Origin: Phyllosticta citribraziliensis
Taxonomy: Eukaryota
Reading direction: 5' to 3'
Assembly: GCF_038025025.1 (NCBI RefSeq)
Contig: NW_027117338.1
Coordinates: forward strand, 2,356,001-2,420,000
DNA length: 64,000 nt
Shown here piece after piece: positions 7,106 to 64,000 of the stretch (position 1 is its first letter; the number at the start of each line of letters is the position of its first letter). The notes beneath the pieces were generated by a model. It did no database searches, had not been told where the DNA came from, and was given only the letters and a program-made list of their open reading frames with translations. The translations under genes were made by a program, and so were the position numbers.

Positions 7106-10100
7106 TTACGCAAAATCAATCTTCCAGCCCTTGGTGATGCTCACCTTGGGGTCTCTCACGACGGCATAGTTGGCCTTGCCCTTCGGCCCAGCGAACCATG
7201 CCATCTCGACCGCCCGCCTGCGCTGGCTCTCCTTAGCACCCTCCTCGCTGACAAACACCTCCGACTTGCCAGACCACTCATCTGGCGCGCCAACGATGAT
7301 GACCTTCTCCACGCGCACCTTGGCCTGATCCTTGAGGTAAGCGGGTGTCTTAGGGCCAGAGGTACCAATGTCGATGGAGGTGAGCGCGTTGGTTTCGGTG
7401 TCAAAGAGGAAGCGACGGTGAATCGAGGCGCCCTCGAGGTAGTCGTAGGTATCGCCATCATCGACATAGAGCTCGCCCGAGGCCTTGCCGTCCTTTCCGA
7501 GGACTACGACCAATGTGTAGGGGTCATACTTCATAAGGCTGGAGCTGCGGCGGGGACGGTCGCGGCGCGGGATGATGTGGCCACCCTGCATCAACAGGGG
7601 GATTTTCTCCAAAGGAACGTCAATCTTGTGGTGGCCCTTGCCTTGGTAAATGGTGTAGTCAAAATAGTCGAAGTAGGGCTCATCGTCGGCAATGTAAATG
7701 TCAGTGCTGGTGGCGCCCTCGGTTGTGACAGGCTTGGCCAGCAGACCAGTTTCGCCAATGTAGAGCTGGTCATCAATGGCGAATCCCTTTTCATCCCCGG
7801 GATGGACGTAGTAGTTGGGCCGGATAATGGGCGCTCCGGAGACGCTGGCTTCGTGGAAGGCAGTGTACCAAGCAGGGAGGAGAGAGTACCGGATGCGGAG
7901 GGCCTGGGTGATGATTTCCGTGTACGGCGATCCAGCAAGGTAAGGCTCGCGACGACGAGTGTCGATGTGGGCATGACCGCGCATGAAGGGGTAGAAGATG
8001 CCTGCCTGGTACCAACGCGTCAAGAGGTCCTTCTCCGGGTTGCCGAAAAAGCCACCAACGTCGGCACCGGCGAAGGGGAAGCCGGAAATGCCCTGGTTCA
8101 GAGTCATGGGAATGGAAGCGGCAAGGTGGTCCCAACGGGCCTGGTTGTCCCCAGTCCACATGGCTCCGAGTCTCTGGCTACCAGAGTAGAAGGAACGCGT
8201 CAGGATAAATGGACGTCTGACCTCACCCTTCTTGCGCTCGACCATCGCTTGGAACGTGGCGTTATGGAACGTCATTCCATTGATGTTGTGGACATCGCGG
8301 TGCTCCCAGTTGCCATAGTGCAAGTTGTCCTTGGGCATGGTGGTCTCGGGTCCGTTGAAGACGGATGGCTCGTTCATGTCGTTCCAGATGAAGGTGTTGT
8401 GAAAGGTGCCCTTGAACGTCTCGTACCTGAACAAGCTCTTCCACCACTCGATGGATGCTGGATTGAAAGTGTCGACCCAGTAGGAAGATCCCGGCCAGCA
8501 CCAGCCCTCGTAATCGCTGCCGTCCTTGGTCTTGGCGGCAAGACCCTTACTCCTCATCTCTTCGATGATGGGGTAGTCCGGGACGTTCTTAATATGAGGG
8601 TCGATAATGGCAACAAGCTTCCGGTCATGCTCATCAAGCTTCTTGTGCATCTCTTCTGTCTTGGGGAAGGTCAAGGGGTCCCAGGTGAAGTACTTCTTCT
8701 CGTGAGTGTATTCAATGTCGAGCCAAATGACGTCGTAAGGAATGTTGAACTTGTCCATCTTGCGGTCGACATCGATGACGTCGTCGTCGGTGACATAGTT
8801 CCACCTGCACTGGTGGTAGCCGACCGAGAACTCTTGGGGCAGCTGGGTGTAACCAGTAAGCTCAGAGTAGCTCTTGATCACGTCCTTGGGCTCAGGGCCT
8901 AGGAAGACAAAAACATCCAGAAGACCGCTCTCAGAGAACCAGTGGGTCTTGGTATCTGTGTGTCCGGCGACTCCCATGCTCAGAGCATTGGCCGTGCTCT
9001 TCGACTTGATAATATCGACCCAGGTCTCAGCACCGTTGAGCCAAAACACGCCCACCGTGGAGTCCTTCTTGTGGGCCTGCATAAAGGGAACGGCGCCGTA
9101 CAGGGTCATTGGGCTGTCCATCAGGTACTCGAATACATCGGCGTTGTACAAGCGATACGGCTCATCGTAGTTGCCCTCGCCCCCGCTGTTCACGTCAGCT
9201 GCGTGCGCACTTCAGCGGTCGTTTCGTACTTACCGCGTCTGCTTCAGCGACAGAGAGCTGGCATGCTCCGGAATACCATAGACATGCTCAAATCCAGGGA
9301 ATGTAATGTCAAGACCGACACTCTCAGGGCCCCTGGGCTTCGAGTCTGTGTTCCCACCGAACGACTCCTCCCACAGCGATGTGTCGTCTTCAAAGGGGAT
9401 CGCTGGGGGCTCCTCAGGCTTCTCTTCGCCCTCGGGCTTGTCAACCTTAGGTCTCCAGTGCTCCATATTCAACAGTCCCTCGCCGTTGAGCCTGACCTGA
9501 GTCTGCCCATCTCGCCTAAAGTCGATGCCCACCGGAGAGTGACGAATGACAGCTTGGAACTTGCCACCGGGGCCGTAAACGACCTTGGTGGTGCCCTCGT
9601 CCGCATCTGCACTGATCGCTGCACCAGTGCTGGGCTCAAGACCCCCAACAATCGCCCAGTCCTCGGCCTCGTTGTAACGTTCTTTGCGAGCTTTGCTCTC
9701 GTTGCGGAGCTCAATCTCGCCCTTTTGCCTCTTCTCTTCGTCAAGCGTAACGCGAGCGGTACCAGACTCGAGGAAGGAGATTGTAAGAGGAAGCTTGACC
9801 TCCTCCCCAGCAGCGTTGATCTTCTTCAAGACTGTACCGGACAGCTTGCCATTGTCAAAGGTGATGGAGGTTGGGTCGAGACGGTAAGGGGACTCCCAAG
9901 TGGAGGATAGCTCGGAAGCCTTGTCGGCAAAGGCCCTGTTGCGCTTGCAAAAGCCAGATTGAGCGCAGGTTTTGAAGTTTTCGTGTTTGACGGCGGCTGT
10001 GGTTGTCATTAGCTTTCGTCGGGTCCCTGGAGCTGTCAAAATGACGTACCTATGGGTGTAAACAAAGCACAAATGGCGGAGATGACGAGGAAAACAAACG

Positions 10101-52609: not shown

Positions 52610-52708
52610 GTGGTGATGAACGACTGCTCATTAAGCGCGACTGTAGTAATGCATGAATGCTACTTGAGCGCTGGCGTAGCAATAAGTGAATGCTCCCTAG
52701 ACGCACTC
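52610..52708. repeat. Degenerate 33-bp tandem repeat x3 built around GAMTGCT
   Basis: Units gtggtgatgaacgactgctcattaagcgcgact / gtagtaatgcatgaatgctacttgagcgctggc / gtagcaataagtgaatgctccctagacgcactc. Confidence 0.7.
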
Positions 52709-53029
52709 ATATTACCTTTTTCGACACCCACTGTCTTGTCGAAAAAGAAGATGGAGGGGCGTTGGTTGGTGGATAGGAAGAGGTGAGAAAAAGCAAATGT
52801 GTCTTGAAGGAGAGCGACTGTCGATGATTTCGGGGTACTAGTGGAGATTGGATATCATTCAACAGCAAGGACTGGAAATTTCACGCGTCAGTTGGCGATC
52901 GGAGAAGCATTCAAGCATCAAAAAGGGACAACGATAAGGAGCATCCATACGCTCTAACGCTGCTTTGCATGTCACGACTTTCACCATCCAGCTCAGATCA
53001 CCACCAAATCCAATCCAACATCTCTCTGC

Positions 53030-56000
53030 TTACGCCTTTCCAGGCTTAACCTCATCACCCAACCACGCATCCAAACCAACCAACGTCTGCTTATCAAGCG
53101 TCCGCCACCCCTTTGGCCCCTCCTCCAACCCATTCCTGTTCCCTCTCTCGCCTCCAGCGTCCTCCCTCCACCGCCACGCGCGCGTGTACTCCGTGTCCCG
53201 CCGCTCCACCACGTCCAGGACCTTGGCGCCCAAGACGGGCAGGAACTTGAAGCCGTGGCCGCTGCCGCCGCTGGCGACGACGAGCCCGGGCACGCGCGGC
53301 ACGTGGTCGATGACGAAGTCGTTGTCGACGCTGTCCGTGTACCAGCAGAGGCGCAGCGAGTCGACGGGGAGAGAGCGCAGGTCGGGCATGTTAGTTGCGA
53401 CAAAGGATTGGATGACGGACAGGGCGCGTTGTGGGATTTTGGATGTGTGCGAGTGGTCCGGGTATGATATCAATCTGTTTGCTTCTTGTGCTGATGTTTC
53501 TGGGTCGGTCTCTGCTGCTGTTTGTTCTGGTTGCTTCTCGTCGACAGCGGCACCATGACCTGTCGCCGTCTTGGGCACACGGAAAGCGAAATTCGTCCAC
53601 TTGGCTCCACGGAACCCGAATTTGATGATGCCGTCCGGCGTGCGCGGAAATCCATACAATCCGCCTACACTGGTCGATGCGGTGCCCATCCCCACGGACG
53701 GATCATACGACGACATTTTCCAACTCCATACCGGAAAGGCATCCGGACTGTACTTTTGCCAAAGATCCTGCCGCTCACGCGGCAAGCGCACCGTCAGGAT
53801 GGAGCCAGCGGTAGTCTCGAGGATAGGCGAGGCGGACGGGACAAGGGAAGGGGTGTAGCCGCCACCAGCGACGACGAGCAGCGAGGCGCGGTGGTGCGTC
53901 CCGTCGGCGGTTGTGAGGCCAGTGACGGCGCCAGTCGTTGGGCAGATGGTGTAGGACGTGAACTTGTGGGAGGCGCCCAGACGCAGCTTGACCCCGGCCT
54001 GTTTGCAGAGATGCAGAGCCCAGCTGCAGGCTTTGCTGGCAAGCACGTAGCCCCCTGTCCCGTCGAAAATGCCGTCGGTCGCAAGCTTGCGGTCGAAGCG
54101 GCCGAAAGGATCCAGCTTGGTGCGAGGGATACCGCGTTTGGCGGCATCTGACTGGCGCTGGGCGTCTGAGATGTGATACTGAGTGGACTTGATCTCCTCG
54201 GGGAAGTTCTGCTGCGTCATGTGCTCATCCTCATCCATTCCATTGTCACTGAGCCTCAAGAATCCCGCCTGGACCCAGATTTTGTCCTCGTTTCTCACGT
54301 TTGAAGGCAGTTCCTTCGCAGTTTTGATCTGTTCGTTCCAGTCTTCCCAGTGCTTCATGGCCGCAAAGGCTAGATCCTGGTATATCTTCCGGCCACCGTA
54401 CGAGGCGCGCAGTATCTTGTTCTCGTCGGCGCTGGCAGCGTTGCAGCCCTGGGAGCATTCATACCCGTTCTTGTCATATGCTTGGTAGTCGAATATGGTA
54501 ACGTCCTTGTAGCCTGCCCTGGCCAAATGGAGTGCAGTGCTGAGACCAAAAACACCAGCCCCGACAATGGCCACTGGCTGGCAGTACTTCAGCTCTTGCT
54601 TGGCACCCAGGGCCCTTGGTGCACCCTCCATGTTGTGAGTATCTTCGGGCCCTTTCCACTTCCATCTCTTCTGCAGCTTAGGCTCAAGTTTGCCTTCAAG
54701 CATGTCCACTACTTTGTCTCCGAGGATGCAGAGAAATTTCCACCCATGTGCGGAACCGCCAGTGACAAGCGCCAAATTCCTTATCTCAGGATGTCTGTCT
54801 ATCAAGAAGTCGGATGTCGGAGTGTTAGTGAACCAGCAAAGTTTGGTCCGGTCAAACGTTACATCGGCCAGTTGGGGAAAAAGCTCTGCGAGGTTGTCTC
54901 TCAAGCCCTTTTCAGCATCTGCAGGTATCGAACTTGGAAGATCCGGTGGTGCAGATACTTCGGAATGCTCCCCGAACGAGTCGACCACTTGTCGTGTGTT
55001 TGTGTATCCTGGCGAGCGCCTTAGGCATTTGATCTCTCCATTGAGCGGAGGAAAGATGTTGAAGCCGGTCGTGAAGTTGGTTGTGATAGGCATATCCCTG
55101 TATCTTTCTTCCAAGTGGGGAGGGACCTTGATCCACGCGACCTCATGCCCGGTCGCCGTGATTTGGTCACTGATGTTTAGTAGTGTATTGGTCCAAGCTC
55201 CGGCAGCGACAACAACGAGGCCGGCATTTAAGTTTGAGCCATTGGCAAGCTGGACGCCGTAGGCAATGCCGTCGGCAACAAGGAGTCGGTGAACGGGATT
55301 GCCAAAAACGAACGAAATGTTTTCCTGGCTCTTACACTTTTGGTAGTAGATTCTCATGCATTCTTCCGCATTGACGAATGCAACGTCTTCGTTGAGATAT
55401 CCCTCGTTCCACTGCTTCTCTCCCGCCGCTGGCTCATTTTCGATGCCGTTGACGCGCCGAAAAATGTCGGGGTGGGAGCCAAGATATTTTAAATAGCCAT
55501 TTGGCTGCACTTCTCCACTGCCGACACGCTTGTTTTGGAACTCCTTGGCAGCATCATATTCTTTCTTCCAAACTTCTGAGCCGTGACGACCTGGGCCTGC
55601 ATGCGCGTAGATCATCCCAGAACGGTAATAATACCGACTCAGCTCTGGGTCGTCTTGAATGAGCTTTTGTGCAGTTAAGGCGAGTTCAGAATAAGCTTCA
55701 TCATGGTAGTCGGCGCGTATGACTCTGGTTGTGTCTGAATGGTTGTCAGTTCTTTTTCAGCTCCTGCGATGGATCACAAGCGCGCGGAAGAAGAATTCAT
55801 GGGTCGGCACCCAGCAATGCAGGTTTGAAGTTAATTCTGTAGATCCCGCGCAATGCAACTCCCGGTCTACTTGCACAGCGAGCGTCTGGTATCTTCAACA
55901 ACAGCGAAAAGCGGCACCTACCTACCGATGTACCGTCCAGGACTGGTGGCTCATGTCTATCAACGACGGTTATTTTGGAATCGGTATAGCGTTTCGACAG

Positions 56001-56057
56001 TGCCAGCGCTGTTGACAGACCAAACGCGCCGCCTCCGACGATTAGCACCGTTTCCAT
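53030..56057 (-). CDS. Tandem double FAD-dependent amine oxidase (two sarcosine/pipecolate/fructosyl-amine oxidase modules), about 946 aa
   Basis: Module 1: [13 protein letters not shown]...[10 protein letters not shown]...[18 protein letters not shown]...GGSAHGWKF. Module 2: [13 protein letters not shown]...[13 protein letters not shown]...[18 protein letters not shown]...GGSGHGFKF. One intron 55735-55921; no stop between the modules. Confidence 0.88.
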
Positions 56058-56761
56058 CCTGGAGAAATGCTTGCCGGTGTTCAGCTTGCTATCAGCTGAT
56101 TGGTGTAGGGCCGCGCTTGATGCGCTACTTTGGAGCCAAAGAGAGAAAAACTAGGCGCTCTCTAGTTGACAAGAAGCTTGGTGAGAGGAGAGAGTGTGGG
56201 ATGATGGCGGTGGTCTGTTGACAAAAGATAGGCACGAGCAAGGTGGGTCCTGGCAGGTACCCCGCCCACTTTCGCCATTCACCTCTATCAACTCGTCAAC
56301 AACCACAGGGTCCCTTTACATCTTGCAAGAGACCAAGCTTCCTATGCTCAAGATCTAGACTTTTTGAGCACAACGGAACGTCAACCCCAGGTTACTTCCT
56401 GGCCTCGGCTCCGGCTCCGGAATGCTCCCTGACGGCACCACAAGCGCACCGGTCTGCGGGCTACCTTGTTCTGGCAACCATGTCTTTGGGCCACGAAGGT
56501 TTTGATGATGCGAAGCGAAAATTGATTGACATTGCTCGAGAGGCTACTGCAACACTCCTTCTAGGCTCAGCTCTTGGGCGCTTTCATCACGCCGCGGAAA
56601 CAAGCAATCCCACTGCTTGGCCCGGCGATGTTTCATTTGACTTCAAATAGTCCCAATGGCCTCTACAAAACGCGGGTAGTTTTAATTGAGCCGTTGGCTT
56701 TATTCGGATCTCCAACGGTCGACCTTCATATTGAAAAAGTGTTGAATTTCTTCAAAACAAT

Positions 56762-58518
56762 ATGCATCCAAAACCCGAAAGCCCACCAAGCATAGGGGGA
56801 GCCCCTGAAAACAGGACACTTTCCGACGCCCATTGCGAGCTCGCCATCGACAAAGAACAAGTCGACACCGACAGCGATGGTCGAAGCCTCCCAGAGATCG
56901 ACAAATCTGCAGAGAGAAAGGTCGTGCGCAAGTTTGACTACACAGTCATGGTCGTCACCTTCCTCATCTTCTTCGCCAAGGGCCTAGGTCGACGTACTCT
57001 CGGCCACGCAAAGACAGACGGCATGGAGAAGGACCTGCACTTCCATGGGAACCAGTATTCGCTGTTGGTCATGGCCGTCAACATTCCGCTTTGTCTTCTT
57101 TGCCTTCCTGCCAACCTGATAACGAGAAGGTACGAGCCGAAGTGGTTTATTGTTGGTTTCACAATGGCTGCAGGACTCCTGGCCATGTGCTATGCTGCCG
57201 CCAAAAACTTCGACCAGGTATGTCGAAAGATCAATTCACAAGATCTTGGCTGATTCTCCAAATAGATGGTTGCTACCCGTGTCCTGCTTGGTGCCATCGA
57301 CGCTGGATTTAGACCTTGTTGCATGGTCGGCTTCCAAATTGTGGTCTCCCAATTTCTTTCTGGCTGACAGATTCAGTTCTACCTCAGCACTTTCTACACT
57401 AGAGGGGAGCTTGCCTCTCGTTACGCAATCGTTGGTCCCCATTTTCAAATACCGTTGAAAACACCGTCAGGGGCTGACACTTGAATTTTAGTGGTACAGC
57501 GGAGGAGCATTCGCGGGAGGATTCTCTGGCCTCATCTCATTCGGTCTCTTCAGGGCTGGGGGTGCACTAAAAGGCTGGCAGTATCTTTTCTTGGTGCAAG
57601 GCGGCTTGACATTTTGTATGGGCCTTATTGCAGCAGTTGTCCTTCCCAAGACACCTTGGGGATGGAAGCGCCTCTCTGAAGAAGAGAAGACCATTGCCGT
57701 CGTCAGGGGCAAACGAGACTCCACTTCCAGAGTCAACACGGCATGGAACATGAGCGAGGGACTGAAACCTTTCAAGACACTGCGGATGTAAGCCAAGTCT
57801 CCACCTACTTGTTCGGCAGTCCATACTTCTCACGACAAGTGTTAATTCGCAATCGAACAGATACATCTTGTCCGTCATCGCACTGTGCTATGGAGTCGGA
57901 AGCTCAGCCGTAGGAACGTTCCTCCCCCAGATCATCACAACCTTTGGTTACTCCAAGCTCAAGACCAACTTCCTCACAACATTTCCCAACATTTTCGGCG
58001 CCATTGTTCTGTACGCCTTTGCTCGTAGCAGCGATCGTCGACGCGAGCGGTCCCTCCATCTACTCCTCTCCATGGTCATCAATATGATTGGCTTGATCAT
58101 CTTGCTGTCCCTGAACGCGAAGGAGCATCCGGGTGTCGCTTACTTCGCCACATTCCTGATGTGCGGCGGCGGCATGACGCCGACGGCACTGTTTCACTCC
58201 TGGCACGTCGGCAACTTGCCCACCGAGAATGGGAGAATAAACGTGTTGAGTTACATGATTGGTGCCGCGAACGCCGGGGGGTTCATCACTAGCTTGACGT
58301 ACAGAAAACAGGATGAGCCGAGACATGTCCTGTTCTTGTTGGCGACAGCAGTGTCTACCGCGGTAGGCATGGTGTTGATTGTTGCGGTTCGATGGTGGAT
58401 GGTCCGAGACAACAATAGGAGAGACCGCGTTATGGGGAAGAAACTCAGGAGTAAGGACGTTCCTTTGAGTGACCTCGTTGATGGGTCAAGCGATTTGAGA
58501 TGGAGATGGTTTGTCTAG
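56762..58518 (+). CDS. MFS transporter, anion:cation symporter (Dal5/Tna1-like) family
   Basis: ERKVVRKFD, GMEKDL...GNQYS, LPANL, FYLSTFYTRGELASR, GWQYLFL, SDRRRER; four introns. Confidence 0.88.
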
Positions 58519-58662
58519 ACCAGATGGTGGTCACGGATTTTGATTGTTTTCGATATTGCTAGTCACATCTAATCCTTCCCGTGTAATGACAAAAGTTTTG
58601 CTGGCTTCCTTGAATTCTTGATGTTGCGTCAAAATTCGGGCTGACAAGTGTCGACAAGGAAG

Positions 58663-58681
58663 AAAAAAAAAAAAAAAAAAA
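58663..58681. repeat. Poly(A)19 homopolymer
   Basis: Run of 19 A between the convergent MFS genes. Confidence 0.9.
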
Positions 58682-58988
58682 GACCCAGAAGATCCTTATG
58701 GATTCCATTCTCTAATCATTTGCTGATCTCGCTTTTCTCGGACTCCAGGGGTAAGTGCGACTGCCTGAGCGCTTGAAAGGATTCTTCAACGATGCCACTG
58801 CAAAGCGCCACTCCATGTGCGTAACAAGACTCCGGGGAGTGCGACGAAAGACCTCAAAGTTTACCAGGCGAAGGCTCGATGTGGTCCTCATAATCCACCA
58901 GATGGGGGGTACCATGGGACGGAGTCGGACTTTCATTTATCTCTGATTCATCCCCATCATGAATTTTTCTAAAGGGAGGGGGGACAAA

Positions 58989-60949
58989 TCAGTCGGTTGC
59001 GTCTTCCCGGAGGATTGGCTCGTAGCCAGCGTACCTTTTGAGTTCCCGGCGCCTGAGATACAAGGTCAAGAGGGCCGAGCCGATGAGGAGGGGTCCGCCA
59101 ATGATGGCGGCTGTGATGTTGCCTTTGCGGTACATGGGCGAGTCTGTTTGTTTCCAGACGATCAGGGGTAGCCAAGCTTGCACGACGTACGCCATTTGGT
59201 TCATGGATCCGACGACGATTGCTCTTTCTTCGTTGTCGCCGGCGCAGATTTCGTGGGCCCATCTGTTGGCGAAGACTGATTAGACAACTTCCGAAAGAAG
59301 GGTTAGGCGGGTCGATACTCACGCGAAGCAGAGACCAGAAAGTCCGCTGTTCAGGCCGGCAAGAATGTAGCACGCCCAGTGCCATGTCCATGGAATGTCC
59401 CATACGGCTAGCGAGATGTACACTATCATGTTGAAGATGCCAGCAAATATCATGGGAGGCCAGCGAGCACCTCTCAAAAAGGTATCCGACGACCAGGCGT
59501 AGACGAGGGTGGAAAAGACTGCGAGACCGTACGTTGTTGTCGGAATGGCGTTGATCTGCGCGATGGTGTATTTGTGGATGCCCTCCGCATTGAGCCATTT
59601 GAGCCACTGCGCAAATGCTGGCTGCGCGAAGTTGTTGCCGTTGTTGAAAGCGCTTGGTCAAATCAGCGAATCGAACTGTAAGCCAGAGGCATGTCTTGGG
59701 ACTCACATGTACAACAAAGTCAGTGACCAAATGTGCCATGAAGAGAGGATATTCTTGATCTTTTCCTTCGTGTATGGAGCGCGGGGTTTGCGTCCTTCGA
59801 GTTTCATTCGGTGGCGCGCCAGGTCAAGTTCCTGTAAAAGGTCAAACATCATCTCTCGTCATTTTGCGTTCGCCTTACCTCCGGCTTGAGATAGAACGGC
59901 CTCGATATCTCAGGGACATCTGGAAGGACAATGAAGCCGAGCAATGCTACTGGAAGGGAAATGATGCCGTCCACAATGAAGAGCCTGAAATTCGTGAGCA
60001 CAAGGCATTGCACGTGGACATTTCGGAACGCACCATTGCCAACCGCGATAACCACCCTTTCCACCCAGGTTGTAGACGGCGGCCATCAAATATCCGCTGA
60101 ACATGGTAGCGATCGAACTGCTAGTATGGAATATACAACTGCGTTTTGCAAGTTCATCTTTCCGATACCACGACCCAATTATGTACTGCATGCCAGGGTA
60201 GAATGTTGACTCTGCAAGACCTGGAATAATCTCAGCTTTGTTGCTTTCTTGGGAACGATTCAAGGTAACGCACCGACTAAGAAGCGAATGGCATAGATTT
60301 GCTGTGGAGTCTTGGCTTGTGAAAGACAAAAGGTGAGAATTGTCCACAAGAGCTACTCTGACGTCAGTGTTGAACATAACACCAGGGCGGTCATAGCGTA
60401 TGAATGCTCCCTTCTTACCTCCATAGCTGGAATCCAAATTGACGGTCGGACTTTTGTCAAGACAATGTTACTTGGTAGCTGGCCAATAACATATCCGACC
60501 GTCCAACATGTTTGCATGATGTTCAATTCGTCACCATACATTCCGAGATCCTCCTTCCTATTGACAATTAGCAACAAGTCGATTGGAAATATAAACAATC
60601 GCACTTACATTCCCGACACGAATGCACTGTTGATGTTTGCTTGATCCAAGTACTTGGCATGCTGTCAGTCAGGATCTCGAAGACCCAAGAGAATGTATGT
60701 ACCTTGATGAAGTATCCTGCCTCAGAATCAGCTTTGTTTCATAATGAAGTTTCGAATTCCAGTCAACATACCAAGCGATGCAAACGTCAAAAGGGCAGCA
60801 TCAAGCTTGAAGAGAAACTTTCTCTCCTCGGGAGACTTGTTGAAAGTGTCCCAAATGGCGCTTCGCCAGTCGTACTTGACATTTTCTTTCACGACCGCAT
60901 TTGTCTTCGACACTGGAGCGCCCTGCTCCCTGTCCGCGGCGTCCGACAT
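58989..60949 (-). CDS. MFS transporter, Seo1/Fen2/Liz1-like (ACS family), many small exons
   Basis: IWDTFNKSPEERKFLFKLD, YLDQANINSAFVSGMKEDL, GQLPSN, ESTFYPG, IIGSWYRKDELAKR, FIVDG; 14-nt micro-exon at 60703-60716. Confidence 0.9.
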
Positions 60950-61892
60950 TCTCAGCGACTGGATTTCGAGGCCGTCAAACAAGAGCCCCGCGGTTTCCAA
61001 GTTGCTGATCGAAACGCCAGTGCAGTCTTGCAATATAATGAAGGACTGGTTGAGATAGAGCGACAACTTCAGCCTCTGGCGCCGCTTCTCGGATATCTCA
61101 AAAGAGGTGCGACGCGACCCCGGTTGCTTGGCCGGCAAGTCACCATGCCCCCGGCGCTTTGCGTGCTCCAGGGTTCGCCATCCTCTGCAAGCTCGCAAGT
61201 CCAACAGCTGATGACGTTGATGGTAGTACAACCGCAACGAGGCCAAACGCCGAAAACCCCGACGGTCGAGATTGAGGCAAAGTTCTTCATTGGGCGAGAC
61301 GGGCGGACTGCGTCAGGTCATTCGAAAGCGATGTCAATCATGGCGGACCCGCAGCGTGCTTGATGCTGGGCGGCGTAGTGTAATCCTCGGTCTCCAATAG
61401 GAGGTACGGCGTCGGCTCGCGGGAATTGTTTGTTTCGGCTGCCGGGCAGAGTGGGAGACGCGCTTCGTTGTGACGAGAAAAAGGTTGCATATGGCGTGCG
61501 AGACCCCGTGAGCCTGATGCCTGAAGCAGCCAACAAACGTCGAGGAGAAGATAAGCGGCACAGCGCCAGAAGAGATGCCCCGCACTGGTGCGTTTGGGCT
61601 GTTGATGCAATTGTGTTCGCCTGATTTGGCGCTTTTTGTTCAAGTGATGTCGAATGCTTCCTGTCGCGTCGCGGAGGGCGTATGGTCAGGCAGGCAGGGT
61701 GTGGAGAAACTATTCCCAATTCGATGGCTTTGAGCATAAGCGAGACTAGCGCACTAACGCCAAACCCGACGACCTCTCTACCCTCTTGCCCTCTCCAAAA
61801 TGTGCTGAACGTCGTCTTGTCTGTCTTTGTGGCCCACGTCAAGAGAGATCTCTCTATGGTCAAAACGCACTCCTTCTACAACCGGCACCAAA

Positions 61893-63499
61893 TCAACATT
61901 CGCCTAGTTGCGCTTGTGTAATAGTCGGCGGTTCAACTTGGGACCCTCTCCCAAAGAATTTAAACCTTTCCGTCATTGCTGCATAAACGGTTTTGAACTC
62001 GTCCGTATGTCCCCTGATTGGATCTTTGTTGCGTCGCGCCAAATCCGCATTGACCCAATCCAAAAGCTCATTCACGTATTCAATGTCCTTGCCTTTGAGG
62101 GAATGAAACTTTTTCCTGAAACCCTTCTCCTCGACTCTTTTGGCATATTCCTGTCTCATGGCATCGCGGTCTGGGAGTTCTGCATTTCCAGACAGCACTG
62201 TTGCCACCACCTTGGCCTGGAAGTCGAAGAGCACAAAAGTTGCGGTAAAGTAAGGAACTCCGACAAAGGCCAGAGTTGGATCGGGGATGTAGAAGATGTC
62301 CTTGTGGAGGTTGTGGTACTGCGTGCCGTCTGTGACGATTACTCTTTCATCGGCCTTTTCGGGCGGTGTGTCGTCCTCGTGGTAGGCTTTCAAGTATGGC
62401 AAGGAGACGTGGTACCCGGTGCAGACTATGACCTGGTCGACATCGCAAAGCTTGTGTCCAGACTTGAGGGTGATGGTGCCTGGAATGGCGCCAGTTTCCG
62501 AAGAATCCGATTCGGGTTGCGACGCGTTTTCGGAATCTGACGAGTCTCCCTCCTGCCCAAAGAAGTCGAAGGACTGGATTTCGCCAATTCTTGTTGCCTT
62601 TTCCGGCAGCAAAGTTGCAGGGAAATCGAAATCGCCGCCCCTTGCACTCTGCCAAATGTTCTTCGCCAGAGGTCCAATCTCTTTGGCAATGTCGGTGGAA
62701 GAGGTGCCCGCACCTATCAAAAGAACATTCTTGTCTTTGAATGCCTCAGGTGTCCTGTAGCTCTTCGAATGGATGACGCGAGAGGGCCATTTCGTCTTCC
62801 AGTCTCGAAGACCAGGGATGTCGGGCACTCTGGGAGCATGGTAATGTCCCGAAGCTACTACGATAGCGTCAAAGCGCTGGAAAGAGTCAGAACTGACAAC
62901 AAGCGTGGATGTAATTGCGGAAGAGCACCTCTGTGGTTTGAAAGTTGTCGGGCTGGTCGACGTTGTTGGCAATGGTAAGCTCCCACTTCCCATCAACCTT
63001 TTCTGCATTTTCAACCAAAGTCCGAAACCGGATCGAATGCTCCAAGTTGTGAGCTTTGACAATTCCTTGGACATAGCTGGCGACAACCGTATGGCTGGTG
63101 AATTCAGGAGTGTCTTGTGGAAAGCCCAACAATGCCGTGGTCATCAAAGGAATCGGCACGTTGTTCTTCAAGTCCCGATAGCACGGCCCTGCGGGAGCAC
63201 GCGCTGAGCCCTTCGAGGACTCATCTTTCCAGCCTGTTTTGGGTGGGTCAGAGGCGAGCGAGGCCTTCTCGGAAGGATAGTCGGGCTCTGGCGGCGGATT
63301 CTCGTCATAAACCCTGCTCCTAGTCAGTACTTCTGGCGCAATGTTGATATGGACTTGAGACTTACCATACGCCGCCCGCAGAGTCACGCCTTTCAAAGAC
63401 GGTCACCTCTACACCATCCTTCTTCAAATATGCGGCAGTCGCGGAACCACTCAAACCCGCCCCAATAACAGCGACATGCGATGCTTTGATCAAAGTCAT
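61893..63499 (-). CDS. Flavin-containing monooxygenase (Fmo1-like)
   Basis: VAVIGAGLSG, FERRDSAGGVW, PCYRDLKNNVP, FDAIVVASGHY, HSKSYR, IGAGTS, VCTGY; two introns. Confidence 0.92.
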
Positions 63500-64000
63500 T
63501 GTGCTCGACGCGCTAGCAAGTAGAGGTGACAGACGAGGCTGGAGAAGATGAGCTGAAGAGCTGACGGCTTCCCAATATTCTGTGCGACGGTGGCTGGTGA
63601 CTAAATTCGCAAAATGAAATAGAATGGCGTACGCCGCAAGGAAGGGAATGGTTTCGGCCCAGCACTTCCCATTTAAGACGTTTGGTTTGCATCACCAGAT
63701 TTCTTCACGACGCCAAAGCGATAGCGAATGGTGGCGCGGCAATGAGTGGGTTCCGACTTGCAAAAGAAATTGTGCAAGCCTTCGCAGTTTGCACCACTTG
63801 GCTTCCGTGGAACCAGCGGAATCGCTCAAACCTTACCAGTTAGTTGCGCCTCTCCGGGATGTAGTGAGCGCTCGAGCCGGGAGGTCCACAGCTGCCGCTG
63901 ACAGCCGCATTTGGTTTCAAACCGTGTAGTTTTATTGGGTGGTTTAGCCCCCGCAATACGTGCAACTCCCGCGGCCCGCGAAGCATGTTGTGAAAGCGAC

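What the first reader, a model, noticed from the sequence alone, without database searches (positions are those of the whole stretch)
53030..56057. Two complete flavin amine oxidases fused head-to-tail in one polypeptide
Seen: after one intron, a single frame of about 946 aa contains two full MSOX/PIPOX/fructosyl-amine-oxidase modules. Each has its own GxGxxG fold, its own LCW[FY]T Cys and its own GGSxHGxKF motif. Module 1 ends (..RWKWKG...ALGAKQELK) directly into module 2 ([11 protein letters not shown], about 54590) with no stop and no room for a promoter. The modules are very dissimilar, so this is not a recent duplication. Known: this family is normally a single-module protein of about 400-450 aa with FAD covalently bound at that Cys. 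Inference: a bifunctional oxidase acting in two consecutive C-N oxidations (e.g. on an N-substituted amino acid, Amadori compound or opine-like metabolite) in an undescribed catabolic route.
Basis: partly seen in the sequence, partly recalled or inferred. Interest (0 to 1): 0.8.

Follow-up and report, generated by a model that had tools for sequence, protein, structure and literature searches.

The report
Fungal twin flavin amine oxidase fusion
A fungal gene joins two distantly related amine-oxidising flavoenzymes into one protein; the join is real and shared by many tree-dwelling fungi, and in some moulds the first half has lost its catalytic parts, so the family shows an enzyme module turning into a non-enzyme.

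Summary
Confirmed. One minus-strand gene (exons 56057-55922 and 55734-53030) encodes 946 aa with two complete MSOX/fructosyl-amine-oxidase-family modules, 24% identical, joined without a linker. A public run shows the 187-nt intron spliced out and a contig across the junction. The full-length fusion with both sites intact recurs in 9 named Botryosphaeriales species (6 genera) and unnamed metagenome fungi, so it is no misassembly. New here: six Penicillium/Aspergillus species carry the same architecture with module 1 stripped of its FAD motifs and covalent Cys, and three unnamed proteins carry a shrunken module 1. Both modules keep the carboxylate-binding Arg/Tyr/Lys triad but have Arg where Amadoriases have the sugar-binding Glu, so Amadori substrates are unlikely. 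An N-substituted amino acid with a second anionic group is my inference. No activity was tested. Ten literature searches found no description. New variant of a known family; interest 0.5.

The parts
56058..56176 (-). 5' untranslated region (at least this far)
   Evidence: the spliced contig of run X1 reaches 56176 (table 8)
55922..56057 (-). exon 1: ATG, module 1 GxGxxG (aa 8-13) and Asp33
55735..55921 (-). 187-nt GT-AG intron, CTGAC branch site near 55749
   Evidence: skipped in an X1 contig (table 5)
53030..55734 (-). exon 2: rest of module 1, junction, all of module 2, TAA stop at 53030-53032
54581..56057 (-). module 1 (aa 1-430), flavin amine oxidase of a clade whose stand-alone members occur in yeasts, Chaetothyriales, Xylariales, Hypocreales and Eurotiales
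55706..55726 (-). module 1 Arg49/Arg52/Tyr55: si-face Arg and carboxylate-binding pair, same spacing as MSOX Arg49/Arg52/Tyr55
55016..55030 (-). module 1 Lys281 and Arg284/Arg285 (Arg285 at the FPOX Glu278 position)
54836..54838 (-). module 1 Cys345, predicted covalent FAD site
54734..54760 (-). module 1 GGSAHGWKF with Lys378
54629..54631 (-). Met414, conserved in the fusion clade; possible internal start for a module-2-only form
   Evidence: public split models begin here
53033..54580 (-). module 2 (aa 431-946), flavin amine oxidase of a clade whose stand-alone members occur in Dothideales/Capnodiales-type fungi; no PTS1 at this protein's end
54545..54562 (-). module 2 GxGxxG (aa 437-442)
54398..54418 (-). 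module 2 Lys485/Arg488/Tyr491
53609..53623 (-). module 2 Lys750 and Arg754 (at the FPOX Glu278 position)
53345..53347 (-). module 2 Cys842, predicted covalent FAD site
53243..53269 (-). module 2 GGSGHGFKF with Lys875
56735..58518 (+). divergently transcribed MFS permease (approximate bounds; 'Dal5/anion:cation symporter type' is a recalled label); possible importer of the substrate, link inferred only
   Evidence: Pfam MFS_1 pieces below cut-off

Best explanation
The gene encodes one 946-aa polypeptide with two independently folding MSOX/FAOX-type oxidases. It arose when two distantly related paralogues fused, module 1's tail running straight into module 2's first Rossmann strand. Shown: the gene structure, splicing, conservation and motifs. 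Inferred from the family: each module binds FAD covalently (Cys345, Cys842), grips the alpha-carboxylate of an N-substituted amino acid with Arg/Tyr/Lys, oxidises a C-N bond to an imine that hydrolyses, and passes the electrons to O2 to give H2O2. Inferred from residues: an extra Arg in each pocket, where Amadoriases have the sugar-binding Glu and MSOX has His, points to substrates with a second anionic group (saccharopine- or opine-like, iminodicarboxylate, or sulfur-acid-bearing), not to Amadori products. The two sites most likely act on different substrates without obligate hand-over. The fusion gives co-expression from one promoter beside a permease and, in Botryosphaeriaceae, co-import into peroxisomes through module 2's PTS1. 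Module 2 is the retained core; module 1 is an accessory activity, strongly conserved in Botryosphaeriales and reduced to an FAD-less fold in Penicillium/Aspergillus.
For: Spliced intron and junction-bridging contigs. 16 of 55 hits of 499-1589 aa cover at least 82% of the 908-aa query. Full-length intact fusions in 9 named species of 6 Botryosphaeriales genera. Both modules are conserved: against P0001, module 1 is 63-73% and module 2 is 61-66% identical in 11 intact fusions. All scored catalytic positions are invariant in 10 of 10 intact module 1s and 21 of 21 fused module 2s. Arg at Lys+4 in 57 of 57 stand-alone module 1s and 75 of 77 stand-alone module 2s; His is usual there in bacterial relatives and in the genome's own L017 paralogue. 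Model folds: module 1 Z 41.2, rmsd 2.5, 410 aligned to 5t1f; module 2 of P0011 Z 38.1, rmsd 2.5, 389 aligned to 6iwe. Independence: only Elasticomyces appears among both the 19 named close module-2 genera and the module-1 clade, and module 1 motifs are lost in 8 of 8 degenerate fusions scored. PTS1: AKL in 8 of 8 Botryosphaeriaceae records, strict PTS1 in 35 of 77 stand-alone module 2s.
Against: No activity, substrate or FAD stoichiometry was measured. The window's protein and P. capitalensis lack a PTS1, so co-import cannot explain the fusion in Phyllosticta. The co-occurrence count rests on capped searches (8000 candidates, best 120 shown) and on named records only. Some public models are split (P0010, P0318, P0459 start at Met414; P0203, P0204 are module 1 only) and I could not see their DNA. 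Contigs across the junction do not prove a single transcript. The full-length model's pTM of 0.71 hints at a fixed inter-module packing, which would suit coupling.
Confidence: 0.5

Rival explanations
1. Sequential bifunctional oxidase: the modules catalyse two consecutive C-N oxidations of one metabolite, such as a doubly N-substituted amino acid, and the fusion couples the steps.
For: The junction has no linker and is conserved in length and sequence in all intact fusions. pTM is 0.71 for the intact model against 0.54 for the degenerate one (single runs). Both pockets share the unusual Arg. The gene lies beside permeases, an FMO and a TauD.
Against: Stand-alone modules mostly occur in different lineages (1 of 19 genera shared). 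Module 2 is kept intact without a functional module 1 in 11 fusions. No conserved neighbourhood could be shown.
Confidence: 0.25
2. One locus, two products: besides or instead of the full-length protein, a module-2-only form is made from an internal promoter and Met414.
For: Met414 is present in 15 of 15 clade members checked and in 0 of 43 matched stand-alone module 1s. Its context is CACAAC-ATG-G, close to the recalled fungal start consensus. It would give a 23-residue lead-in before the GxGxxG, against 10-22 in most stand-alone module 2s. Public models in three species start there.
Against: There is no stop between the modules in any intact record. Macrophomina also has a 914-aa full-length model. 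Gene callers pick the nearest Met when they split a gene. X1's bridging contig runs 226 nt upstream of Met414.
Confidence: 0.12
3. Only module 2 is catalytic even here; module 1 already serves as a ligand-binding or structural partner, as in the Penicillium/Aspergillus forms.
For: Degenerate module 1s keep their length, a predicted fold with mostly 70-90 pLDDT, and a conserved stretch of the substrate domain.
Against: In the window and all intact fusions module 1 keeps every FAD and catalytic motif and is at least as conserved as module 2.
Confidence: 0.08
4. Pipecolate oxidase plus saccharopine oxidase: two lysine-catabolic oxidases that converge on the same semialdehyde (reactions recalled).
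For: Automatic names of relatives include 'L-pipecolate oxidase' and 'L-saccharopine oxidase'. Module 1's nearest paralogue in the genome is L017 (34%). An extra Arg would suit saccharopine.
Against: The genome has separate single-module genes with the canonical His (L017) or Glu (L018, L019) at Lys+4. Both modules form their own clades. The names are automatic.
Confidence: 0.1
5. Artefact: a misassembly or strain-specific deletion joined two neighbouring genes.
For: Some public models are split.
Against: The same junction occurs in 9 named species, two unnamed metagenome clusters and contig L013, and is bridged by contigs of two runs.
Confidence: 0.01

Closest known systems
Fungal fructosyl amino acid/peptide oxidases (Amadoriase I/II of Aspergillus fumigatus, 4WCT/3DJD; FPOX of Phaeosphaeria nodorum 5T1E and Eupenicillium terrenum 4RSL)
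   Same: Best PDB matches of both modules by sequence and fold (Z 38-41); covalent Cys and si-face Lys/Arg kept.
   Different: Single modules of 424-461 aa; only 23-29% identical in the structural alignments; fructosyl-binding Glu278 is Arg in both modules and Trp235 is His or Gly; the fusion has Arg/Tyr at MSOX positions 52/55.
Bacterial monomeric sarcosine oxidase (MSOX/SoxB), N-methyltryptophan oxidase, NikD
   Same: Same fold (Z 35-37); Arg52/Tyr55/Lys348 carboxylate triad kept in both modules by motif spacing.
   Different: His269 position is Arg; far below the NCBIfam cut-offs; twice the length, two modules.
Fungal L-pipecolate oxidase and L-saccharopine oxidase
   Same: Same family; automatic names of relatives borrow these labels; many relatives carry a PTS1.
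   Different: Single modules; the genome has other single-module genes that are better candidates; orthology was not tested.
FsqB/FmpA of A. fumigatus (6GG2)
   Same: Fungal family member with a non-standard substrate; same fold (Z 33.3, rmsd 2.6, 378 aligned).
   Different: Single module of 497 aa, from a secondary-metabolite pathway (recalled); weak sequence match.

Membership tests
MSOX/FAOX covalent-flavin amine oxidase family (each module) | DAO two-domain fold | tested here: met
   Pfam PF01266 on each half; models align at Z 41.2 (module 1 of P0001) and Z 38.1 (module 2 of P0011)
MSOX/FAOX covalent-flavin amine oxidase family (each module) | GxGxxG plus acidic residue for FAD | tested here: met
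   aa 8-13/Asp33 and 437-442/Asp461
MSOX/FAOX covalent-flavin amine oxidase family (each module) | Cys at the covalent-FAD position | tested here: met
   Cys345 and Cys842 align with the Amadoriase/FPOX Cys (PMC5459902 passage)
MSOX/FAOX covalent-flavin amine oxidase family (each module) | FAD actually attached; oxidase activity with O2 | not testable with these tools
   needs purified protein
MSOX/FAOX covalent-flavin amine oxidase family (each module) | two basic residues on the flavin si face (FPOX Lys57, Lys274) | tested here: met
   Arg49/Lys281 and Lys485/Lys750
MSOX/FAOX family (whole protein) | single module of about 370-500 aa | tested here: not met
   946 aa with two modules; all 30 PDB sequence matches are 372-497 aa
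Fructosyl amino acid oxidase (Amadoriase/FPOX) | Glu278 and Trp235 that bind the fructosyl group | tested here: not met
   Arg285 and His in module 1, Arg754 and Gly in module 2 (alignments; residues from PMC5459902; counts)
Bacterial monomeric sarcosine oxidase | Arg52, Tyr55, Lys348 carboxylate triad | tested here: met
   R52/Y55/K378 and R488/Y491/K875; matched by motif and spacing, not by a printed alignment to MSOX
Bacterial monomeric sarcosine oxidase | His269 in the pocket | tested here: not met
   Arg four residues after the Lys265-equivalent in both modules; position matched by spacing
Bacterial monomeric sarcosine oxidase / MTOX | NCBIfam cut-offs TIGR01377 (479.65) and NF008425 (257) | tested here: not met
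   halves score 57-72 and 88-103 bits; the 908-aa frame scores 123 and 184
Fungal pipecolate / saccharopine oxidase (Fap1/Fap2 type) | orthology to the characterised enzymes and activity on their substrates | not testable with these tools
   no reference sequence was available; paralogues L017 and L019 were labelled from recalled motifs only
Peroxisomal PTS1 oxidases | C-terminal [SAC][KRH][LM] | tested here: not met
   the window protein ends in GKA; met in 8 of 8 Botryosphaeriaceae fusion records

The most novel reading that the evidence does not exclude
One ancient fusion created a two-site covalent-flavin oxidase for an undescribed class of dianionic N-substituted amino acids, with the two modules working in sequence in Botryosphaeriales. 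In Penicillium/Aspergillus module 1 was then re-selected as an FAD-less, substrate-binding pseudoenzyme that regulates or feeds module 2. Long stem branches followed by renewed conservation, an intact fold and a retained substrate-domain motif fit this. It would be a natural series from bifunctional enzyme to enzyme-pseudoenzyme pair in one family.
Probability: 0.2. Interest if true: 0.72.

Novelty: new variant of a known kind. Interest (0 to 1): 0.5.

Why it matters
The MSOX/Amadoriase family is used in diabetes and creatinine diagnostics (recalled), and all its solved members found here are single modules. A natural two-module member, present across an order of woody-plant endophytes and pathogens under generic names, is a new architecture. 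It also marks two uncharacterised subfamilies with an unusual Arg in the pocket, which makes a substrate screen well aimed. The matched set of intact, FAD-less and shrunken module 1s allows a direct test of whether a dead module is a relic or a working pseudoenzyme. It does not overturn a principle: tandem fusions and pseudoenzyme domains are known in other families.

Tried and rejected
Complex prediction of the two halves of P0011 gave no verdict (score 0.11, mark 0.34, no alignments) and is not used either way. Parts of the gene without contig cover in X1-X3 are not used. Alignment A2 (85 sequences) misplaced stand-alone module 1s across both modules and was discarded. The careful module-2 tree did not finish, so quick trees are reported. 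Single origin of intact and degenerate fusions: module-1 support 92, unstarred, with long branches; 79, 38 and 53 with one degenerate row at a time; module-2 trees do not group them, and the AU test does not reject grouping (p 0.29); left open. The three shrunken module 1s were left out of the module-1 trees. Bacterial relatives of module 2 (80 loci kept of 222, 26-35% identical) mostly have His at Lys+4 and no neighbour shared by more than 17 of 80 loci, so they gave no substrate clue. The metagenome scan gave 4 loci, only one with the fusion and too short for context. ESM Atlas returned only single-module clusters of 423-495 aa. No GATAA site in 56058-56800. The scan's earlier notes held nothing. 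PMC5813194 and PMC12387551 (passages) gave nothing usable. A possible stop-removing intron at 53033-52872 gives no PTS1, and an X3 contig reads through it unspliced. Record P0460 is identical to my model and is not counted as independent.
Full report
OBSERVATION. The minus strand holds a stop-free frame of 908 aa at 53030-55756. An ATG at 56057 opens a short exon with a GxGxxG. A GT donor at 55921, a CTGAC branch site and an AG acceptor at 55735 restore the family's N-terminal motif across the intron. The spliced CDS is 2841 nt, 946 aa, with one stop, and carries two GxGxxG, two LCW[FY]T and two GGSxHGxKF motifs. Pfam DAO hits each half. The halves are 24% identical, so this is not a recent duplication. 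In run X1 a contig skips exactly 55735-55921, and another covers 54425-54857 with no differences; run X5, a close relative, also bridges the junction. The tool only guesses that X1 is RNA, but the GT-AG skip indicates spliced RNA. Contigs cannot prove a single transcript, and X1 may not be independent of the assembly.

RECURRENCE. Of 55 hits of 499-1589 aa, 16 cover at least 82% of the query. With cluster members, full-length fusions with both sites intact occur in Phyllosticta capitalensis, Botryosphaeria dothidea, Neofusicoccum parvum, N. ribis, Lasiodiplodia hormozganensis, L. theobromae, Diplodia seriata, D. intermedia and Macrophomina phaseolina, in two unnamed JGI clusters, and across the junction in contig L013. 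26 stored records carry all six motifs; many are redundant, and one (P0460) is identical to my model and not independent. The junction is the same in all intact forms. A misassembly is excluded. Against P0001, module 1 is 63-73% and module 2 is 61-66% identical in 11 intact fusions, so both are under selection.

AGAINST A SIMPLE PICTURE. Some public models are split: P0010, P0318 and P0459 begin at the Met414-equivalent, and P0203 and P0204 are module 1 only. Macrophomina also has a 914-aa model, so at least some splits are annotation choices, but I could not see the DNA. Met414 is conserved in 15 of 15 clade members and absent from 43 matched stand-alone module 1s, so an internal start remains possible.

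JUNCTION ANATOMY. Stand-alone module 1s end 16-31 residues after an APR motif; in the fusion, module 2's GxGxxG comes 20 residues after it. Module 1's tail thus runs into module 2's first strand with no linker. AlphaFold2 on P0001 gave mean pLDDT 76 and pTM 0.71. Module 1 aligns to FPOX at Z 41.2, rmsd 2.5, 410 residues. All 30 PDB sequence matches are single modules of 372-497 aa.

A DEGENERATE BRANCH. Penicillium digitatum, P. angulare, P. salamii, P. olsonii, Aspergillus melleus, A. wentii and unnamed P0009 and P0017 have the same two-module order in 852-897 aa. In the 8 scored, the covalent Cys, the GGSxHGxK motif and the Arg52/Tyr55 pair are lost. The third Gly of GxGxxG and Asp33 are lost in 7 of 8, P0009 keeping them. 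A stretch of the substrate domain (about aa 257-289) holds many of the 44 columns that stay invariant. Module 2 keeps every scored position in 21 of 21 fusions. Three unnamed proteins of 710-723 aa have a module 1 shrunk to about 255 aa. The P0011 model still folds module 1 (most blocks pLDDT 70-90) with pTM 0.54, and its module 2 aligns at Z 38.1. Within the Penicillium/Aspergillus core, module 1 is 60-73% and module 2 is 82-90% identical: relaxed but not free. Whether intact and degenerate fusions share one origin is open. The module-1 tree groups them (92, unstarred, long branches) and does so weakly with one degenerate row at a time (79, 38, 53). Module-2 trees do not, but the AU test does not reject grouping (p 0.29). 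All trees are the quick kind.

ACTIVE SITES. PMC5459902 (passages) names the covalent Cys, the si-face Lys57 and Lys274, and the fructosyl-binding Trp235 and Glu278 of FPOX. PMC12582975 (passages) names Arg52, Tyr55 and Lys348 as the carboxylate-binding residues of Sox enzymes, and His269 as a pocket residue. Both modules keep the Cys, the si-face basic residues and the Arg/Tyr/Lys triad; the MSOX positions were matched by motif spacing. Both have Arg at the Glu278/His269 position (Arg285, Arg754), as do 57 of 57 stand-alone module 1s and 75 of 77 stand-alone module 2s, and the Trp is His or Gly. Bacterial relatives mostly have His there. The genome's three single-module paralogues have His or Glu, so the housekeeping pipecolate-oxidase-like and Amadoriase-like roles (labels partly recalled) are probably filled elsewhere. 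Inference: the substrates are N-substituted alpha-amino acids with a second anionic group, not Amadori products.

SEQUENTIAL OR PARALLEL. The stand-alone module-1 clade is found in yeasts, Chaetothyriales, Xylariales, Hypocreales and Eurotiales. The close stand-alone module-2 clade is found in 19 named genera or taxa such as Aureobasidium, Hortaea, Cercospora and Zymoseptoria. Only Elasticomyces is in both; Scytalidium and Clonostachys pair module 1 with more distant module-2 relatives. Both searches were capped at 8000 candidates with 120 shown, and unnamed records were not counted. With the repeated decay of module 1, this argues that neither module needs the other. Module 2 usually ends in a PTS1 (strict in 35 of 77 stand-alones, W-type in 17 more; AKL in 8 of 8 Botryosphaeriaceae fusions), which would carry module 1 into peroxisomes, where H2O2 is removed (established knowledge). 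The window's protein, P. capitalensis and the degenerate forms lack it.

CONTEXT. The gene is divergent from an MFS permease, followed by a second permease, an FMO-like gene and a TauD gene; housekeeping genes lie on the other side. A stand-alone module-1 relative in L015 also faces a permease. Synteny in relatives could not be tested.

MECHANISM. Most likely (0.5): a bifunctional, two-FAD oxidase whose sites work independently on different N-substituted amino acids, fused for co-expression and, ancestrally, co-targeting. Rivals: sequential steps (0.25), an additional module-2-only product (0.12), pipecolate plus saccharopine oxidase (0.1), module 1 non-catalytic here (0.08), artefact (0.01). 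These are not all exclusive.

NOVELTY. Ten searches of the open-licence PMC and bioRxiv library listed no paper on a two-module member. Searches (Phyllosticta with sarcosine oxidase; three accessions and three phrases for tandem DAO domains) returned zero. Most results were seen as listings only. Subscription journals and supplements were not seen, and could mention it. Public records carry only generic names. Each module works like an MSOX/FAOX enzyme; the whole protein is not an Amadoriase or an MSOX by the tests above. Verdict: new variant of a known kind, real and conserved, function untested; interest 0.5.

Noticed in passing
window 56735-63691 and L020:223-1421 (G000:C1:2420223-2421421): Right of the fusion lie two MFS permeases, an FMO-like gene and, divergent from it, a TauD-family dioxygenase: a possible sulfur-scavenging block. 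Whether the fusion belongs to it is unknown.
   Followed up: partly
L015:5791-9425: A stand-alone module-1 relative sits divergent from an MFS permease that matches the window's second permease (59400-60655) at 32-42% in exon pieces, with a fungal transcription factor on the other side.
   Followed up: partly
P0317, P0462, P0463, P0464, P0282, P0465: All 6 protein models from P. citricarpa, P. paracitricarpa and P. citriasiana are broken: they end at the module-2 Cys, lack its HGFKF motif and lack large parts of one module. P. citricarpa and P. citriasiana cause citrus disease, while P. capitalensis, with intact copies, is an endophyte (PMC6965161, abstract start). DNA not seen.
   Followed up: partly
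window 55457-55510: In run X5, a close relative, the main contig skips these 54 nt in frame, starting at a GT. It may be a cryptic in-frame intron or a deletion that removes 18 conserved residues of module 1.
   Followed up: no
P0011-P0017: Penicillium and Aspergillus fusions are interleaved in the trees, and P. digitatum is 80% identical to A. melleus and A. wentii: possible transfer or hidden paralogy. P. angulare has both a degenerate fusion and an intact stand-alone module 1 (P0238).
   Followed up: no
P0203, P0204: Module-1-only models nested inside the intact-fusion clade; P0203 ends in SKL. Possible secondary fission with a new PTS1, or split gene models.
   Followed up: partly
window 53033-52872 (-): A GT overlapping the stop codon, a CTGAC branch and a CAG acceptor could form an intron that changes the last residues; an X3 contig reads through unspliced.
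   Followed up: partly
window 53030-56057: GC at third codon positions is 0.55 in module 1 and 0.72 in module 2. Module 2 carries a low-confidence, length-variable loop (aa 757-798 in P0001).
   Followed up: no
window 52676-52733: A short stretch that matches contigs from elsewhere at high depth in all four laid runs (tables 2 and 7): probably a small dispersed repeat.
   Followed up: no
L017, L018, L019: Three single-module family paralogues in the genome: one with His at Lys+4 ending in AKL, one Amadoriase-like with Glu, one with Glu ending in SKL.
   Followed up: partly
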